IMG/VR virus record: IMGVR_UViG_2579778919_000004
Span: 1-9,156 of that record
Direction: 5' to 3' (one strand)
Length of the DNA: 9,156 nt
Source of the DNA: a virus
Lineage: Duplodnaviria; Heunggongvirae; Uroviricota; Caudoviricetes
In this document: positions 3,261-9,156 of the stretch, piece after piece
How positions within the stretch are numbered: position 1 is the first letter of the stretch
How the letters are laid out: the number at the start of each line of letters is the position of its first letter
Notes under the pieces: model-generated
Database searches by the model: none
Seen by the model: the letters and a program-made list of their open reading frames with translations, nothing else
What the model was told of the DNA's origin: nothing
Translations under genes and position numbers: made by a program

Positions 3261-3481
3261 CGTGCCGCCTCTCGCTGGATTGTCTTGTGGGCTCGCAACA
3301 TATCGCGGGATTTTCCGGACAAAACCGTCTTCATGAAGAACATTCCACTGCGGTTTGCAACTATTCCTGGAGTGCAGATCAGCGTGGCGTCTACCACCCG
3401 GTTATGTTTACGGAATTCAAACACCGTGCTGGTGATAACGATGTTCGCCACGGCGCCGTAGTCCTGGTATTGGATTTTCAT
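3257..3481 (-). CDS. Hypothetical small phage protein, 74 aa
   Basis: ATG at 3479-3481 preceded by GAGGAG with an 8-nt spacer; overlaps the stop of the upstream clamp-like gene (ATGA). Confidence 0.7.
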   Translation of the reverse strand: MKIQYQDYGAVANIVITSTVFEFRKHNRVVDATLICTPGIVANRSGMFFMKTVLSGKSRDMLRAHKTIQREAAR

Positions 3482-4044
3482 GCCAGATGCTCCTCAACAA
3501 TTTTGAAAGCATCATCACGGCATGGCATCACGACGAACTCAGGGTTACCGTATGTAGTGTTGATCACTGGATCGAACTGAATGCGTACCGCTCCAGCCTC
3601 ACCGGAAGGGCGTAACTGGATGGGAATAAACTTTCGCTCGCGACCAAACATCTTTTCCGGATAGCTGAGGTATTCAGCCTGGATAACCGGATTGATACTG
3701 AAATCCACTTTTTTCGGGATGACGCGTTCCATATCAGGAAAACGACCATCAACAAGTTTGATGCCAGTGATCAAGATCCGACGCTCGAACGTGTCGCGGT
3801 GAATGGCAAAGGCTTCTTTGTTGAATACCAGTTCAGTGGTTTCCGCTTTCGCCGGAACCGGTCCTTCAAACTGGACGATGATGTTTTTCTTCGTCCGGAT
3901 GCCGTGCTCCATGCGCAGTGCTACATGCCCGTTAGTTGACTCGATATATTTCGGAGTGATGTGCACACCATTCAGGTAGTAACGGACATCATTTTTTGCA
4001 GCGCATACCAGAGCTGCGCGAATGAGTTTCGACTGGATGATCAT
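3478..4044 (-). CDS. Truncated DNA polymerase III beta sliding clamp (DnaN)-like protein, 188 aa, corresponding to clamp domain II plus an abbreviated domain III
   Basis: Three colinear motifs match E. coli DnaN as I recall it: DVRYYLNG (DnaN domain II, with flanking K-LI-A and T-GH-LA context), KLVDGRFPD..RV.PK (DnaN TSKLVDGRFPDYRRVLPK) and the C-terminal VVMP.R (DnaN ends AAYVVMPMRL). The ORF is about half the length of DnaN (366 aa) and lacks domain I. Strong tandem SD (GGAGGTGGAGG) before the ATG at 4042-4044. Confidence 0.7.
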   Translation of the reverse strand: MIIQSKLIRAALVCAAKNDVRYYLNGVHITPKYIESTNGHVALRMEHGIRTKKNIIVQFEGPVPAKAETTELVFNKEAFAIHRDTFERRILITGIKLVDGRFPDMERVIPKKVDFSINPVIQAEYLSYPEKMFGRERKFIPIQLRPSGEAGAVRIQFDPVINTTYGNPEFVVMPCRDDAFKIVEEHLA

Positions 4045-4871
4045 GCCTCCACCTCCACGAAGATCTCTTTCGGATCCTTACGCAGAACGAAGCCACCAAA
4101 TTCAGGATGTTGCCAGCGCTTGCGTTTACCGCTTGGGGGAACGGATTCTTCCAGCAGCACCTGAAATGCGTGAATGAACGATTCACGGTGTACGCACAGC
4201 CCACGAACTCCCGGCAACTGTCTGGAGGGCAGGTTTGCGAACTGAACAAGACGACGGCACGAAGGATCGGACAGACTGGTTTCCCATGACACTTTGTGTA
4301 CCGGAACGAATTCGGCATCGGTATTCACGAATTCAGTCGAACTAATGCGCCGTTGTGGTAGAGAGGAAGATACAGGCGAAGCAGCAACCAGGTTGGTGCC
4401 ACTCACTTCCATTACTGCTTTCATCGTCGCTGATGCGGTTGCTTCGGCCACAACACGGGCCAGCGAAAGAATGTCATGGTTCATGCTGATTTCCTGCTGG
4501 TGTGATTTAGCTACTGGCACTTCTTTGCTGTATGTGCCTGTGGTCATGATGGCAGGGAGTACATCTTCACAAACCCAGTCCTGTACGCGTTCAGCCGATG
4601 GAAGCTGGCTTCGCAGGATAAGGCGGAACAAGTCGGCCTGACCAGCAAGCTGAGTACCGCGCGGTTTTTCACCAAACCCCAATTCTAACGATTCGTTATA
4701 ATCAAGTTTAATCAATGCCTTGCAGTGGTCTTTCAGCGCTTTTGCTGGGTTCGTATAACCGAGGGATTTAGCCAGTTCTACAGCGTCAAACGCTGGCTTT
4801 CCCTCATAAAGAATTCCGCTCATAGAAAAATTGAGTTCTTCTGAGCTAAAGGTCATAAGTTGTTTATTCAT
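4041..4871 (-). CDS. BRO-N domain protein (phage antirepressor-like N-terminal domain) with an uncharacterised C-terminal half, 276 aa
   Basis: The N-terminal ~120 aa shows a BRO-N pattern: FSSEELNFSMSGILYEGKPAFDAVELAKSLGYTNP ... DLFRLILRSQLPSAERVQDWVCEDVLPAIMTTGTY. ATG at 4869-4871 preceded by GAGGGAAATAACG. The C-terminal ~150 aa has no recognisable motifs. Confidence 0.82.
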   Translation of the reverse strand: MNKQLMTFSSEELNFSMSGILYEGKPAFDAVELAKSLGYTNPAKALKDHCKALIKLDYNESLELGFGEKPRGTQLAGQADLFRLILRSQLPSAERVQDWVCEDVLPAIMTTGTYSKEVPVAKSHQQEISMNHDILSLARVVAEATASATMKAVMEVSGTNLVAASPVSSSLPQRRISSTEFVNTDAEFVPVHKVSWETSLSDPSCRRLVQFANLPSRQLPGVRGLCVHRESFIHAFQVLLEESVPPSGKRKRWQHPEFGGFVLRKDPKEIFVEVEA

Positions 4872-6776: not shown

Positions 6777-7073
6777 TTATCTTTCAGAAACGTCATTATT
6801 GCCCCCCCCTTTGAGGTGTTCTCCATCGTCATTTTTTGTCATGAAGCAAAGCTCATTAAGTAATGAGGTGAATCTTCCCGCTACCTTCACATCAGTGCGT
6901 GTGATTGCGGGCATAAGTAACTGGGTAAATTCAGCACGCAGCTCATGCGCATATTTATTGGCACACTCTGCTGTTTTGTGGGCTTTATTTATGTAAAGAA
7001 AGTCGCCATCCTGATTGGCTGGATGGACTTTGTTATTCACGATTTCACTTCTGACGATAATATTCATTTGCAT
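6777..7073 (-). CDS. Hypothetical protein, 98 aa (or 96 aa from the ATG at 7065-7067); AT-rich moron-like gene with a G8 tract near its 3' end
   Basis: The ORF lies in AT-rich DNA. GAGG sits only 2 nt before the first ATG but 8 nt before the third-codon ATG, which favours the latter start. The codons for KGGGN contain G8, seen as C8 on the + strand at ~6802-6809. Confidence 0.62.
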   Translation of the reverse strand: MQMNIIVRSEIVNNKVHPANQDGDFLYINKAHKTAECANKYAHELRAEFTQLLMPAITRTDVKVAGRFTSLLNELCFMTKNDDGEHLKGGGNNDVSER

Positions 7074-7140
7074 TTCCTCAGGGTGAGTTTTTCCCCACCC
7101 TAAAAGGTGTTAATTATTAATAATTGACTTAATTAGTTAG

Positions 7141-7434
7141 TTAAATAGCAGAGAACATTTTCTTAATATCAGGATGGTCATCTATGATTTTTTTAGCATC
7201 ATCACATGCCTCGTCATATGATTTAAAGAAATCAACTAATACGAAATAATTTTCGATGCGTTCGTAAACGGCGAACTCCATCTCACCAACAAATGTCGTA
7301 TTGAATTGGTAATCAAAACCTTTATCGTGAGGCTGCACAGCATGGCAATAAGACCAATGCGAATTGGTTGATCTAAGCTTGGCGTGAATATCAAATGTCT
7401 GGCAGGTAGGTTTTGGTTGGGAGTTTGTGTTCAT
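7141..7434 (-). CDS. Hypothetical mildly acidic protein, 97 aa; first gene downstream of the predicted PL
   Basis: ATG at 7432-7434 preceded by GGAG with an 8-nt spacer. AT-rich composition. The protein is Asp/Glu-rich toward the C-terminus (DEACDDAKKIIDDHPD). It is not basic or Arg-rich, so it does not look like a lambda N-type antiterminator. Confidence 0.68.
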   Translation of the reverse strand: MNTNSQPKPTCQTFDIHAKLRSTNSHWSYCHAVQPHDKGFDYQFNTTFVGEMEFAVYERIENYFVLVDFFKSYDEACDDAKKIIDDHPDIKKMFSAI

Positions 7435-7560
7435 CTCATTGGCTCCGTTGTTTGCCGATGAAATGAGAATACTTAAGTATTAATTGAAGGTCAATGGTAT
7501 TAATACAAAAAGAATAATAGTTTTCTTATGTATTTGTTATTGAAGATTATTTTAGTAATA
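7435..7560 (-). promoter_or_regulatory. Predicted leftward early promoter and operator region (PL/OL analogue)
   Basis: On the minus strand: TTGACC (-35; + strand ggtcaa at ~7489-7494), a 17-nt spacer, then TATTCT (-10; + strand agaata at ~7466-7471), about 25 nt upstream of the ATG at 7434. A perfect 14-bp palindrome AATACTTAAGTATT (~7468-7481) overlaps the -10 and spacer, and a second palindrome GTATTAATAC (~7497-7506) lies just upstream of the -35. Both share the TAATAC half-site found in the cI-cro intergenic region. Confidence 0.4.
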
Positions 7561-7598
7561 AAAAAGCCGACGCTATGGTCGGCTTGGTGCTTTTTTGG
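7559..7598 (-). terminator. Rho-independent terminator downstream of the repressor gene (hairpin flanked by an A-run and a T-run, so potentially bidirectional)
   Basis: AAAAAA-AAGCCGAC-gctatg-GTCGGCTT-ggtgc-TTTTTT: a perfect 8-bp stem with a 6-nt loop. On the minus strand the stem is followed directly by TTTTTTATT, about 20 nt past the repressor stop. Confidence 0.6.
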
Positions 7599-7605
7599 CA
7601 GCGGA

Positions 7606-8298
7606 TCAGAAGATTGTTGATACCCAAAACAGTCTTCCTAAAACTTCAAGACTATCCATGTCTACTTCTTCGTCAGGGTATTCATCAGAGTTGTAGCTTC
7701 TGATTGTCACCTTATCTGGCCCAGATCTGTAGAGGATTTTTAACCTTTTCCATCCACCTTGGTTGATGCCGTAAATTTTACCATCCACGATACGCTTGTC
7801 ATGGCAGTTTATGGCAACAGTTGAGCCATCAGCGATCACTGGCTCCATGCTATTTCCGTGTGCAGCAAAGCATAGAACGCCATCACCATCACTATTAGCT
7901 CCCACCTTTCGCAATGTTGCTTTGGAAAATCTAAGTTTTTTTCCATTGTAATCATCATTAAGGGCGCTGCCATCTCCACATGCGAACTCGATATCCTTCA
8001 AGTAAGGCACCTCTACCTCATCATCCTCAAGCGGCGTTTGCTTATCCCATGGATCTATACCAAACATTCTTTGTTCTGGCGTTTTTGCTGGCCCCATGGT
8101 GCCTTCACCAGTGCTTAACCATATGGGATCTACATCCAGTGCTTTGGCTATATCCACGATTTTTCCGCTGGACTGAGCTTTTCCTGAGGTTAGTTTTTGT
8201 ATGGCCCCCTGGCTTACCCCAACCCTATGCGCTAATTGACTTTGAGTAGCCCCAGCATGAGCCATCGCCAGCCTTAGTCTTTCTGCAAGTGTGTTCAT
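7606..8298 (-). CDS. CI-like prophage repressor: N-terminal XRE-type HTH plus C-terminal S24 (LexA/UmuD-like) autopeptidase domain, 230 aa
   Basis: N-terminal HTH (QSQLAHRVGVSQGAIQKLTSG). C-terminal S24 signatures: GNSMEP (catalytic Ser in a G-x-S-M context) and downstream WKRLK (candidate catalytic Lys). Candidate autocleavage site Cys-Gly in FACGDG, as in UmuD. ATG at 8296-8298 preceded by GGAG. Divergent from a cro-like gene. Confidence 0.9.
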   Translation of the reverse strand: MNTLAERLRLAMAHAGATQSQLAHRVGVSQGAIQKLTSGKAQSSGKIVDIAKALDVDPIWLSTGEGTMGPAKTPEQRMFGIDPWDKQTPLEDDEVEVPYLKDIEFACGDGSALNDDYNGKKLRFSKATLRKVGANSDGDGVLCFAAHGNSMEPVIADGSTVAINCHDKRIVDGKIYGINQGGWKRLKILYRSGPDKVTIRSYNSDEYPDEEVDMDSLEVLGRLFWVSTIF

Positions 8299-8424
8299 CT
8301 TAGTATCTCCGATTTTTATGCATATTTAATACCACAGGATTAACCATGGCAAGCGGATAATACTTGATTAATTATTCCTTTGGTATTATTTTATATCTTT
8401 AATATTAATACTAAGGGCTTTGTT
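8299..8424. promoter_or_regulatory. Divergent immunity control region (OR analogue) with candidate PRM (leftward) and PR (rightward) promoters and repeated TAATAC-type operator half-sites
   Basis: AT-rich 126-bp intergenic region between the divergent repressor and cro-like genes. TAATAC or its complement occurs at ~8327, ~8358, ~8383 (complement) and ~8406. Imperfect palindromes: TAATACCACAGGATTA (~8327-8342), GGATAAT..ATTATTCC (~8355-8378), and CCTTTGGTATTA with TAATACTAAGGG (~8377-8417). Candidate PR: TTGATT (~8364-8369), 17 nt, TATTTT (~8387-8392). Candidate PRM on the minus strand: TTGCCA, 17 nt, TTAAAT (+ strand ~8347-8352 and ~8324-8329). Confidence 0.55.
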
Positions 8425-8667
8425 ATGACTGATGAGGTGTTTGAATCCCCAATGGCGAAAGCCGTGTACGTTGCTGGTGGTCAAAGTTCGCTTGCTAAAA
8501 AGGTTGGCGTTACGCAAGGGGCCGTCTGGAAGTGGGTCAGGGGGATCAAGAAAGTTTCTCCGGTCCATGCAGTGGCAGTATCAAACGCAGTTAATGGAAT
8601 TGTTAAGCCTCATGAACTGCGGCCTGATTTGCCGACTCTTTTCCCGCACCCGGGCAATGAGGTGTGA
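8425..8667 (+). CDS. Cro-like / YdaS-family HTH regulator, 80 aa
   Basis: ATG at 8425 preceded by AAGGG with a 7-nt spacer; the track start at 8380 is a TTG inside the operator region and was rejected. The segment AVYVAGGQSSLAKKVGVTQGAVWKWVRG ... ELRPDL resembles Rac prophage YdaS as I recall it (VVGGQSALARLLGVSPPSVNQWIKG ... ELRPDI). Divergent from the repressor. Confidence 0.8.
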   Translation: MTDEVFESPMAKAVYVAGGQSSLAKKVGVTQGAVWKWVRGIKKVSPVHAVAVSNAVNGIVKPHELRPDLPTLFPHPGNEV

Positions 8668-8668
8668 T

Positions 8669-8878
8669 ATGTCGCACTCAATCACTACCGAAAACCAAAT
8701 TAAGCAATTGGATATCGATTATCGCGATCCGCGCGGTGTGATTGTGCATGTCACCGGCTGGAATCGGGATAAGCAGCAGGTGTATTTCACCAGGCAGAAT
8801 TATCCGCATGAATGTATGCAGCCTGTCTGGAAGTTCCAACAATATTTTACGAAGGTCTCGGAGGCGCAAAATGCGTGA
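8669..8878 (+). CDS. Hypothetical small early protein, 69 aa
   Basis: ATG at 8669-8671 lies 1 nt after the cro-like stop and is preceded by GAGG with a 6-nt spacer. The longer track ORF from 8432 overlaps the cro-like gene in another frame and was rejected. No recognised domain. Confidence 0.6.
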   Translation: MSHSITTENQIKQLDIDYRDPRGVIVHVTGWNRDKQQVYFTRQNYPHECMQPVWKFQQYFTKVSEAQNA

Positions 8879-9156
8879 TTACGGAAAGGTGCCGTCTGAG
8901 TTTTGGTTGGACCAAAACGGCAACAAATGGAAAGTGCCCACGATCAAAGGTCGCCTGAAAATGCGCGTACCCTGCCATCGCGCACTACGCGAATTTGTTC
9001 TTTGGCGCGACGGTTTCAAATGCCGTCATTGTGGTAGTCAAGACCGCATTAAATTGGTCGCAGATCACATTGTATCGCGACGTAACGGTGGTGCTCACCA
9101 CCCAGACAACATGCAATGTTTGTGTGATTCCTGCAATGCGCGCAAGGCTTCCCTAG
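8871..9156 (+). CDS. HNH endonuclease family protein, 3'-truncated by the window edge
   Basis: ATG at 8871 preceded by GGAGG with a 6-nt spacer; overlaps the previous gene by 8 nt. Manual translation: MRDYGKVPSEFWLDQNGNKWKVPTIKGRLKMRVPCHRALREFVLWRDGFKCRHCGSQDRIKLVADHIVSRRNGGAHHPDNMQCLCDSCNARKASL. It has the C-x2-C ... D-H ... N ... H ... C-x2-C arrangement of the HNH motif. Confidence 0.8.
   Translation, partial: MRDYGKVPSEFWLDQNGNKWKVPTIKGRLKMRVPCHRALREFVLWRDGFKCRHCGSQDRIKLVADHIVSRRNGGAHHPDNMQCLCDSCNARKASL

What the first reader, a model, noticed from the sequence alone, without database searches (positions are those of the whole stretch)
7435..7560. Predicted OL/PL with a perfect 14-bp palindrome sharing half-sites with OR
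AATACTTAAGTATT is a perfect palindrome overlapping the predicted -10 and spacer of a leftward promoter (TTGACC, 17 nt, TATTCT), and GTATTAATAC lies just upstream. The TAATAC half-site recurs in the repressor/cro intergenic region. This gives a coherent, testable operator model for the CI-like repressor.
Basis: seen in the sequence. Interest (0 to 1): 0.5.

Follow-up and report, generated by a model that had tools for sequence, protein, structure and literature searches.

The report
Left operator and promoter of a prophage
The palindrome is very probably the main binding site where this prophage's CI-like repressor shuts off its leftward early promoter, an ordinary lambda/434-style switch with an operator sequence that I did not find described.

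Summary
AATACTTAAGTATT (7468-7481) is a perfect palindrome over the -10 and spacer of a leftward TTGACC-17-TATTCT promoter. GTATTAATAC sits upstream, and TAATAC recurs four times in the repressor/cro gap.

- **Operator unit.** It is a 14-16 bp dyad, (T)AATAC-N4-GTATT(A). This is the geometry of phage 434 operators (ACAA-N6-TTGT), and the repressor's DNA-binding domain is closest to 434 Cro and cI among solved structures.
- **Conservation.** In 11 diverged loci with the same recognition helix, the outer half-sites are almost invariant. The central TTAA varies, so the perfection of the palindrome is incidental.
- **Covariation.** Relatives with QAA or QPA instead of QGA in the recognition helix have ACAAC-N4-GTTGT or ATAAC-N4-GTTAT dyads. 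Their Cro proteins change in parallel.
- **GTATTAATAC.** It does not have the operator geometry. It joins a second operator (7501-7516) to an extra half-site facing the -35.
- **Elsewhere in the phage.** Strong dyads occur only at OL and OR in a complete related phage genome.

No binding or transcription data exist. This is a new member of a known kind, of modest interest.

The parts
7467..7482 (.). OL1: the primary left operator. + strand GAATAC-TTAA-GTATTA, minus strand TAATAC-TTAA-GTATTC. Its core is the perfect 14-bp palindrome 7468-7481. It covers the PL -10 and the proximal spacer.
   Evidence: One mismatch to TAATAC-N4-GTATTA. Across 11 diverged loci the half-site columns have a majority frequency of 0.97, against 0.80 for the centre. 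The site is also present in further loci with the QGA recognition helix.
7466..7471 (-). PL -10 hexamer TATTCT. Five of its 6 bp lie inside the promoter-proximal half-site of OL1.
   Evidence: Five of 6 columns are invariant in 11 loci. The start site is inferred near A7459 and has not been mapped.
7489..7494 (-). PL -35 hexamer TTGACC.
   Evidence: It is conserved, with a 16-17 bp spacer, in 11 loci.
7501..7516 (.). OL2: a second, weaker dyad just upstream of the -35. + strand TAATAC-AAAA-AGAATA.
   Evidence: Three mismatches. Relatives have better versions at the same column (TAATAT-TTTT-GTATTA, TAATCT-TTTT-GTATTA), although the sequence further upstream is unrelated.
7497..7506 (.). 10-bp palindrome GTATTAATAC. 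It joins OL2's proximal half to an extra TAATAC(C) half-site (7497-7502, read on the minus strand) that abuts the -35. That half-site may nucleate a weak third site, 7487-7502.
   Evidence: GTATTAATACCATTGAC is invariant in 9 of 11 loci. The reverse arrangement recurs in QGA-class OR regions. Function unresolved.
7435..7465 (-). PL leader. It carries the Shine-Dalgarno sequence GGAG (7446-7443) ahead of the ATG at 7434.
   Evidence: Fifteen of 31 columns are invariant in loci whose first genes differ.
7141..7434 (-). First early-left gene (97 aa, no family match).
7564..7585 (.). Bidirectional intrinsic terminator ending the cI transcript. Leftward early transcription must therefore start downstream of it.
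7606..8298 (-). CI-like repressor (230 aa). It has a 434-like HTH domain (recognition helix Q30-G31-A32-I-Q-K35) and an S24 autopeptidase domain (Cys107-Gly108, Ser150, Lys184).
8327..8342 (.). OR3-like operator TAATAC-CACA-GGATTA, over the inferred PRM spacer and -10.
   Evidence: One mismatch. The half-sites are invariant or nearly so in 11 loci, and the centre varies.
8324..8352 (-). Inferred PRM: TTGCCA (8352-8347), 17 nt, TTAAAT (8329-8324).
   Evidence: Read from the sequence. TTGCC is conserved. Not reported by the scan, so this is an inference.
8358..8373 (.). Weak dyad TAATAC-TTGA-TTAATT. One good half-site lies directly upstream of, and the dyad extends over, the PR -35.
   Evidence: Three mismatches. 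The half-site is lost in L048, L058 and L060, so support is low.
8364..8392 (+). Inferred PR: TTGATT (8364-8369), 17 nt, TATTTT (8387-8392).
   Evidence: Read from the sequence. The -35 column is conserved. Inference.
8373..8388 (.). OR1-like operator TATTCC-TTTG-GTATTA in the PR spacer and the edge of the -10.
   Evidence: Two mismatches. Conserved in 10 of 11 loci.
8392..8407 (.). Further dyad-like site TATATC-TTTA-ATATTA at the inferred PR start. It is followed by the TAATAC half-site at 8406-8411.
   Evidence: Four mismatches. The minus-strand pattern TAATMT-TWWA-G is conserved in all loci, and it is a clean dyad in L058 and L060.
8425..8667 (+). Cro-like gene (YdaS-family HTH, 80 aa). Its recognition helix, T30-Q31-G32-A33-V-W-K, shares the QGA motif with CI.

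Best explanation
The 7435-7560 region is the left operator/promoter (OL/PL) of a lambdoid (Hendrixvirinae-like) prophage.

Inferred mechanism in the lysogen:
1. A dimer of the CI-like repressor (7606-8298) binds the dyad at 7467-7482.
2. The promoter-proximal half-site of that dyad shares 5 of 6 bp with the -10 hexamer of PL, so RNA polymerase is excluded.
3. A second dimer binds the weaker dyad at 7501-7516, just upstream of the -35.
4. An extra TAATAC half-site next to the -35 may help cover it.

The same kind of dyad lies over the inferred PRM (8327-8342) and PR (8373-8388, 8392-8407).

Recognition is 434-like. Each HTH domain reads the outer 5-6 bp (AATAC). The central 4 bp are not read base by base.

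By homology, RecA-stimulated self-cleavage (Cys107-Gly108, Ser150/Lys184) removes repression. Cro, which carries the same Q-G-A recognition residues, then uses the same sites.

Shown here: the sequence features, their clustering, their conservation, and their covariation with the recognition helix. Inferred: binding, order of occupancy, cooperativity, the transcription start, and SOS induction.
For: - **Layout.** The cI terminator (7564-7585) is followed by the only leftward promoter-like site in the gap, a conserved leader and the first early-left gene.
- **Proteins.** The repressor has HTH_3 plus Peptidase_S24 domains, and a divergent YdaS-type cro lies across the gap.
- **Clustering.** Seven of 8 TAATAC/GTATTA hexamers in the window lie in the two gaps. 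No local shuffle out of 2000 reached the observed counts.
- **Full phage.** In the complete related phage AsXd-1 (39 kb), the three dyads with 2 or fewer mismatches lie only at OR and OL.
- **Conservation.** In 11 loci sharing the recognition helix (60-97% repressor identity), the OL1 half-sites, the -10 and the -35 are conserved. The dyad centre, the spacer and the upstream DNA vary.
- **De novo dyad search.** Over all 1024 pentamers in 48 distinct OR regions, AATAC came top (tied in a few loci) in every locus with the QGA helix. ACAAC came top in every QAA locus. ATAAC came top in 19 of 20 QPA loci and tied for top in the twentieth, L118, which has a QPS helix.
- **Spacing.** The dyad spacing peaks sharply at N4 in all three classes: 23, 21 and 15 hits.
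- **Cro.** The Cro helices covary in the same way.
- **Homology.** The N-terminal domain is closest to 434 Cro (E = 3e-8) and 434 cI (E = 1.6e-5). An imm434 phage shows the same 14-bp geometry, three sites each in OR and OL.
Against: - There are no binding, footprinting or transcript data for this phage or any close relative.
- The promoter is a 9/12 consensus match that would not stand out on its own.
- OL2 in this window is a poor dyad (3 mismatches).
- The number of real operators per cluster and their spacing are unclear. Centre-to-centre distances in OL are 34 bp, or 20 and 14 bp if the half-site is counted. Neighbouring operators in the imm434 control lie 22-31 bp apart.
- AT-rich DNA inflates weak matches. 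Hits with 3-4 mismatches also occur in coding sequence.
- The covariation cannot separate CI binding from Cro binding.
Confidence: 0.8

Rival explanations
1. The dyads are mainly or only Cro (YdaS-family) sites, or CI and Cro read the same half-site in different arrangements. For example, CI would bind AATAC-N4-GTATT and Cro would bind the head-to-head GTATT-AATAC palindrome.
For: - Cro carries the same QGA motif and covaries with the operators just as CI does.
- The reverse arrangement GTATT-N0/1-AATAC recurs in QGA-class OR regions and in OL (7497-7506, 8402-8411, 8322-8332).
- In CP-933P, PaaR2 and YdaS footprints overlap and two interleaved repeat types were described (PMC8630535).
Against: - In characterised lambdoid switches, CI and Cro share operators.
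- The N4 dyad is the element common to all three specificity classes. The head-to-head arrangement is not found in the QAA and QPA classes.
- An extended half-site GTATTAA explains 7 of the 10 bp of the palindrome.
Confidence: 0.12
2. This is a chance AT-rich palindrome next to a chance promoter-like match. The TAATAC recurrence would only reflect -10-like, AT-rich intergenic composition.
For: - 14-bp palindromes are expected about 0.6 times per window, and another lies at 7112.
- Promoter-like matches are no more frequent than in shuffles.
- The gaps are 28-33% G+C.
Against: - Local dinucleotide-preserving shuffles never reach the observed hexamer counts.
- Half-sites are conserved while neighbouring AT-rich columns drift.
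- The half-site sequence switches with the recognition helix across 48 OR regions.
- The N4 spacing peak is sharp.
Confidence: 0.03
3. The operator assignment is right, but PL lies elsewhere or is not the main early-left promoter. Leftward genes would be expressed by read-through from cI or from a promoter nearer 7520-7560, and the dyad would act as a roadblock or looping anchor.
For: - The start site is not mapped.
- Only a 9/12 promoter match exists.
- OL lies about 0.9 kb from OR and could serve CI-mediated looping.
Against: - A strong terminator lies between cI and the gap.
- -35, spacer length and -10 are conserved across loci whose upstream DNA is unrelated.
- No other leftward promoter-like site exists in the gap.
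Confidence: 0.05

Closest known systems
Phage 434 cI/Cro with 14-bp operators (ACAA-N6-TTGT)
   Same: - The N-terminal HTH domain is the closest solved homologue.
- The operators are 14-bp dyads with conserved outer bases and a variable, AT-rich centre.
- 434 and P22 repressors read the operator centre by indirect readout (PMC3317979).
- Repressor and Cro share the first residues of the recognition helix: QQS in 434, QGA here.
- Operators cluster at both OR and OL.
   Different: - The half-site is AATAC, not ACAA(G/T).
- The recognition helix is Q-G-A-I-Q-K, not Q-Q-S-I-E-Q, so immunity differs.
- Cro here is a YdaS-family protein.
- The C-terminal domain is phi80-like.
- Operator spacing differs: 434 has centre-to-centre distances of 22-31 bp, while this OL has 34 bp, or 20 and 14 bp.
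Phage lambda OL/PL and OR/PR/PRM switch
   Same: - The gene order is the same: early-left genes, PL/OL, cI, OR, cro.
- An operator overlaps the promoter spacer and -10.
- The repressor is an S24 self-cleaving protein.
   Different: - Lambda operators are 17 bp and unrelated in sequence.
- There is no rexAB between cI and OL here, only a terminator.
- No N homologue was recognised as the first leftward gene.
- The OL-OR distance is about 0.9 kb, against about 2.3 kb in lambda.
Phage phi80 cI
   Same: It is the closest characterised full-length repressor. Overall identity is 49%, and I estimate the C-terminal domain at about 65% from the alignment. The shared sequence includes KDIEFACGDG, with the Cys-Gly bond that I recall as the RecA-dependent cleavage site in phi80 (not checked here).
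   Different: The N-terminal domain and the operators are unrelated. Phi80 OL and OR use AATCAACA/TGTGGATT-type repeats.
CP-933P PaaR2/YdaS switch of E. coli O157:H7 (PMC8630535)
   Same: It pairs a CI-like regulator with a YdaS-family Cro analogue and has experimentally shown OR operators. It also has a PL-type promoter with OL1-3, predicted from sequence and then tested in reporter fusions.
   Different: It has a different repressor family and different operator sequences (18-bp repeats, consensus GTTTAGTAA). It also carries an embedded toxin-antitoxin pair.

Membership tests
Lambdoid CI/Cro immunity switch | Repressor with an N-terminal HTH domain and a C-terminal S24 (LexA-like) self-cleaving domain | tested here: met
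   HTH_3 (E = 1.3e-8) and Peptidase_S24 (E = 7.4e-15). Ser150, Lys184 and the A-C-G motif align with phi80 cI and are invariant in the family alignment.
Lambdoid CI/Cro immunity switch | Divergently transcribed cro-type gene across a short gap that holds several related operators | tested here: met
   A YdaS/P22_Cro-type HTH gene lies at 8425-8667. The 126-bp gap holds 4 dyads with 3 or fewer mismatches, against 0.40 expected (P = 0.0015).
Lambdoid CI/Cro immunity switch | Second operator cluster overlapping a leftward early promoter beyond the 3' end of cI | tested here: met
   Dyads lie at 7467-7482 and 7501-7516, around TTGACC-17-TATTCT. They are conserved in 11 or more diverged loci.
Lambdoid CI/Cro immunity switch | Three operators per cluster, bound cooperatively and in a defined order | tested here: inconclusive
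   OL has one strong dyad, one weak dyad and an extra half-site. OR has 2-3 good and 2 weak dyads. The spacings are unusual.
Lambdoid CI/Cro immunity switch | Repressor binds the operators and represses PL and PR; induction follows RecA-stimulated cleavage | not testable with these tools
   This needs EMSA or footprinting, reporter fusions and induction assays.
Phage 434-type repressor-operator recognition | DNA-binding domain homologous to 434 cI/Cro | tested here: met
   The best solved-structure matches are 434 Cro (E = 3.1e-8) and 434 repressor (E = 1.6e-5), aligned without gaps over residues 1-65.
Phage 434-type repressor-operator recognition | 14-bp dyad operators with conserved outer 4-5 bp and a variable centre | tested here: met
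   The spacing peak is at N4 only. Half-site conservation is 0.97, against 0.80 for the centre. An imm434 control shows ACAA-N6-TTGT three times in OR and three times in OL.
Phage 434-type repressor-operator recognition | 434 immunity specificity: ACAA...TTGT operators read by a Q-Q-S recognition helix | tested here: not met
   The helix is Q-G-A-I-Q-K and the half-site is AATAC. The system works like 434 but is not imm434.
Phage phi80 immunity | phi80-type N-terminal domain and operators | tested here: not met
   Only the C-terminal domain is similar. Phi80 OL and OR sequences are unrelated.

The most novel reading that the evidence does not exclude
Within this natural family of 434-like CI/Cro pairs, one residue may set immunity specificity. 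It is the second residue of the recognition helix (Gly31 here, equivalent to 434 Gln29).
- Gly goes with AATAC.
- Ala goes with ACAAC.
- Pro goes with ATAAC.

Only operator positions 2-3 change, and the matching change is present in both CI and Cro of each phage. If this residue is causal, the family is a ready-made set of orthogonal repressor/operator pairs. It would also be a clean natural example of how hetero-immune phages arise by coordinated small steps.

A further possibility is that the recurrent head-to-head GTATT-AATAC element is a distinct binding geometry used by Cro.
Probability: 0.4. Interest if true: 0.5.

Novelty: new member of a known kind. Interest (0 to 1): 0.3.

Why it matters
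It gives a specific, testable operator map for an immunity group that is common in Klebsiella, Enterobacter, Kosakonia and Citrobacter-type prophages and is also carried by the sequenced phage AsXd-1. I found no published operator data for this group.

The three-way link between recognition helix and operator half-site (QGA/AATAC, QAA/ACAAC, QPA/ATAAC) could be used in two ways:
- to predict superinfection immunity between prophages from sequence alone;
- to supply orthogonal repressor/operator parts.

The biology itself is the textbook lambdoid switch, so it changes no concept.

Tried and rejected
- **Palindrome as evidence on its own.** Rejected. Shuffles of the window give 0.6 perfect 14-bp palindromes, and a second, unrelated one lies at 7112.
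- **Promoter scan as evidence on its own.** Rejected. Six sites were found against 4.4 expected.
- **GTATTAATAC as an operator of the same kind as the 14-mer.** Rejected. It has the opposite half-site orientation, and the N4 dyad is the recurrent unit.
- **RNA-level explanations.** There are no Rfam matches in 7000-8700. The palindrome lies upstream of the inferred start site, so it is not in the PL transcript. The consensus leader hairpin is weak (-3.75 kcal/mol) with almost no covariation.
- **phi80 operators as a model.** Rejected. They are unrelated, because only the C-terminal domains are homologous.
- **Literature.** A search for TAATAC operators returned papers unrelated to this operator; I read none of them, and I assume the hits come from TAATAC in T7-promoter primer sequences. 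The AsXd-1 hits are, by title and abstract, phage surveys and reviews, none about immunity-region operators; I did not read them.
- **Database scans with little yield.** The genome-contig scan with the single protein returned only 4 loci. E. coli complete genomes hold this immunity region in only 1 of 5426 genomes.
- **Close relatives.** They were uninformative for footprinting, because the gaps are 98% identical. Resolution came only from loci with 60-92% repressor identity.

Full report
**Context**

The window is the left arm of an integrated lambdoid prophage. On the minus strand it carries:
- integrase (697-2010);
- excisionase (2066-2302);
- a run of early-left genes ending at 7141-7434.

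A 171-bp gap (7435-7605) follows, then a 230-aa repressor gene on the minus strand (7606-8298). A 126-bp gap (8299-8424) separates it from a rightward cro-like gene (8425-8667). After cro come a DUF4222 gene and an HNH gene.

- The repressor has HTH_3 and Peptidase_S24 domains. Cro is a YdaS/P22_Cro-type HTH protein.
- The closest sequenced phage is 'Aeromonas' phage AsXd-1 (Hendrixvirinae), 93% identical in DNA and 100% in the repressor.
- Only 1 of 5426 complete E. coli genomes carries this immunity region.
- Relatives are named from Klebsiella, Enterobacter, Kosakonia and Phytobacter.

**The observation**

- AATACTTAAGTATT lies at 7468-7481.
- On the minus strand, TTGACC (7494-7489) is separated by 17 nt from TATTCT (7471-7466). 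This is the only leftward promoter-like site in the gap.
- GTATTAATAC lies at 7497-7506.
- A bidirectional intrinsic terminator (7564-7585) ends the cI transcript. Leftward early transcription must therefore start between it and 7434.

Taken one at a time, these features are weak.
- A perfect 14-bp palindrome is expected 0.6 times per shuffled window, and another lies at 7112.
- Promoter-like matches are no more common than in shuffles.

The clustering of the half-site is not weak.
- Seven of the window's 8 TAATAC/GTATTA hexamers lie in the two gaps, which make up 3% of the sequence.
- None of 2000 local dinucleotide-preserving shuffles reached the observed 3 and 4 copies.

**The operator unit**

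Scanning for TAATAC-N4-GTATTA gives these hits:

| Start | Mismatches |
|---|---|
| 7467 | 1 |
| 8327 | 1 |
| 8373 | 2 |
| 7501 | 3 |
| 8358 | 3 |
| 8406 | 3 |

Two further 3-mismatch hits lie in coding sequence. In the complete AsXd-1 genome, the three dyads with 2 or fewer mismatches lie only in OR and OL.

Close relatives were useless for footprinting, because the gaps are 98% identical. I therefore collected loci whose repressors are 60-92% identical but keep the same recognition helix, xQGA(I/V)QKL.

In the 11-sequence PL alignment, majority frequencies by column group are:

| Columns | Majority frequency |
|---|---|
| OL1 half-sites | 0.97 |
| -10 hexamer | 0.98 |
| -35 hexamer | 0.89 |
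| Dyad centre | 0.80 |
| Rest of the spacer | 0.68 |
| Upstream DNA | 0.64 |

On the minus strand, OL1 reads:
- TAATAC-TTAA-GTATTC in the window;
- TAATCC-TAAA-GTATTC in L034 and L047;
- TAATAC-TAAA-GTATTC in L048;
- TAATAC-TTTG-GTATTC in L060;
- TAATAC-TCCC-CTATTC in L056.

The outer 5-6 bp are therefore constrained, and the perfect central symmetry is incidental.

The second dyad (7501-7516) is poor in the window (TATTCT-TTTT-GTATTA on the minus strand). It is better in relatives (TAATAT or TAATCT as the distal half), even though their upstream DNA is unrelated.

**Link to the repressor**

Among solved structures, the N-terminal 80 residues match 434 Cro (E = 3e-8) and 434 repressor (E = 1.6e-5) best, aligned without gaps. 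That alignment places Gln30-Gly31-Ala32-Ile-Gln-Lys35 opposite 434 Gln28-Gln29-Ser30-Ile-Glu-Gln33.

An imm434 phage (Sf101) served as a control. It has ACAA-N6-TTGT three times in OR and three times in OL, which is the same 14-bp geometry.

I then ran a de novo search over all 1024 pentamers h for h-N4-rc(h) in 48 distinct OR regions of the wider family.
- AATAC was top (tied in a few loci) in every locus with a QGA helix. This includes Citrobacter, Yersinia and Serratia repressors only 60-64% identical to this one.
- ACAAC was top in every QAA locus.
- ATAAC was top in 19 of 20 QPA loci and tied for top in the twentieth, L118, whose helix is QPS.

The spacing profile has a single sharp peak at N4 in all three classes: 23, 21 and 15 hits.

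The Cro proteins of the same loci carry the matching residue:
- TQGAVWKW in QGA loci;
- SQAAVQKW or SQQAV(Y/F)KW in QAA loci;
- SQPAVHKW in QPA loci.

This mirrors the QQS motif shared by 434 cI and Cro. This covariation is the strongest available evidence that the dyads are the binding sites of these proteins. It cannot tell CI from Cro.

**Anatomy of the two control regions**

- **PL (shown by sequence and conservation).** The -35 is at 7489-7494 and the -10 at 7466-7471. OL1 (7467-7482) shares 5 of 6 bp of its proximal half-site with the -10. OL2 (7501-7516) lies 7 bp upstream of the -35.
- **The 10-bp palindrome.** GTATTAATAC has the reverse arrangement (GTATT-AATAC). It joins OL2's proximal half to an extra TAATAC(C) half-site that abuts the -35.
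  - GTATTAATACCATTGAC is invariant in 9 of the 11 loci; it is lost in L060 and altered in L056.
  - A similar head-to-head element recurs in the OR of QGA-class loci.
  - Its role is unresolved. It could be a weak third operator across the -35, an extended half-site GTATTAA, or a Cro-specific geometry.
- **OR (inferred).**
  - PRM is TTGCCA(8352-8347)-17-TTAAAT(8329-8324), overlapped by the dyad at 8327-8342.
  - PR is TTGATT(8364-8369)-17-TATTTT(8387-8392), overlapped by the dyad at 8373-8388.
  - Another conserved dyad-like site lies at the PR start (8392-8407).
  - A weak dyad lies over the -35 (8358-8373).
  - The inferred PR and PRM start sites are about 81 bp apart, much as in lambda (about 82 bp by my recollection; not checked here).

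**Mechanism**

The most likely mechanism is steric exclusion of RNA polymerase from PL by a repressor dimer on OL1. Binding at OL2 and at the half-site next to the -35 would assist.
- The outer bases would be read 434-style.
- The AT-rich centre would be read indirectly, as established for 434 and P22 repressors (PMC3317979).

The C-terminal domain is roughly 65% identical to phi80 cI by my count from the alignment (49% over the full length), including KDIEFACGDG, Ser150 and Lys184. This predicts RecA-stimulated self-cleavage. I recall the Cys-Gly site from the phi80 literature and did not check it here.

Occupancy order, cooperativity, OL-OR looping over about 0.9 kb, and the start site near A7459 are all inferences.

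**Comparison and novelty**

The system works like the 434 and lambda switches but belongs to neither immunity group.
- The 434 specificity test fails (QGA/AATAC against QQS/ACAA).
- The phi80 N-terminal domain and operators are unrelated.
- The CP-933P PaaR2/YdaS switch is the nearest studied case with a YdaS-type Cro, and it also has a PL-type promoter with OL sites (PMC8630535). Its operators are different.
- I found no published operator data for this immunity group.

It is therefore a new member of a known kind. The one mildly novel element is the apparent one-residue code (Gly/Ala/Pro with AT/CA/TA at operator positions 2-3), shared by CI and Cro across the family.

**Verdict**

- Confidence that 7467-7482 is a CI/Cro operator overlapping the early-left promoter is about 0.8.
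- Interest is modest (0.3).

Noticed in passing
window 7435-7465 (minus strand); also 8290-8317: The PL leader (CATTTCATCGGCAAACAACGGAGCCAATGAG, then ATG) is strongly conserved: 15 of 31 columns are invariant in 11 loci whose first early-left genes are unrelated. It resembles the cI leader and start (79% over 28 nt). A possible hairpin, UCAUC...GAUGA over the start codon, is weak (-3.75 kcal/mol) and shows almost no covariation. The reason for the conservation is unknown.
   Followed up: partly
window 7112-7125: A second perfect 14-bp palindrome, AATTATTAATAATT, lies in the gap between the first and second early-left genes, next to a short G+C hairpin (7081-7102). It has no TAATAC half-site, and its role is unknown.
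   Followed up: no
window 7606-8298 and 8425-8667; loci L034-L147: Across the repressor family, the second residue of the recognition helix tracks the operator half-site: Gly with AATAC, Ala with ACAAC, Pro with ATAAC. The Cro of each locus carries the matching residue. The correlation holds in all 48 distinct OR regions examined, apart from one QPS-helix locus (L118) where ATAAC only ties for top.
   Followed up: yes
window 7497-7506, 8402-8411, 8322-8332: Head-to-head half-site elements (GTATTAATAC, ATATTAATAC, ATATT-T-AATAC) accompany all three inferred promoters. They recur in QGA-class relatives, whereas neighbouring operators in QAA and QPA relatives are 10 bp apart. The elements could be abutting operators, an extended half-site, or a separate Cro geometry.
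   Followed up: partly
window 7606-8298 (residues 86-230): The C-terminal domain is phi80-cI-like, including FACGDG (Cys107-Gly108 rather than the usual Ala-Gly), while the N-terminal domain is 434-like. The repressor is a clear domain mosaic.
   Followed up: partly
L002/L067 (MH178096, Aeromonas phage AsXd-1): A phage deposited with Aeromonas salmonicida as host has a repressor 100% identical to this one, and operators nearly identical to those of prophages from Klebsiella, Enterobacter and E. coli. It has 51% G+C. The host attribution looks worth checking.
   Followed up: no
window 7237-7252: The only TAATAC hexamer outside the two gaps lies inside the first early-left gene (TAATACGAAATAATTT, 3 mismatches to the dyad). 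It is probably chance.
   Followed up: no
window 8669-9156: No cII-like gene follows cro. Instead there is a DUF4222 gene (8669-8878) and an overlapping HNH endonuclease-like ORF (from 8871, running off the window). Relatives have different genes at this position (DUF4222, HTH_36, pRha, Bro-N).
   Followed up: no
window 3478-4871: The early-left operon encodes a Bro-N domain protein (4041-4871). It also encodes a 188-aa protein with a faint match to the central domain of the DNA polymerase III beta clamp (3478-4044, E = 0.002, below the family cut-off).
   Followed up: no
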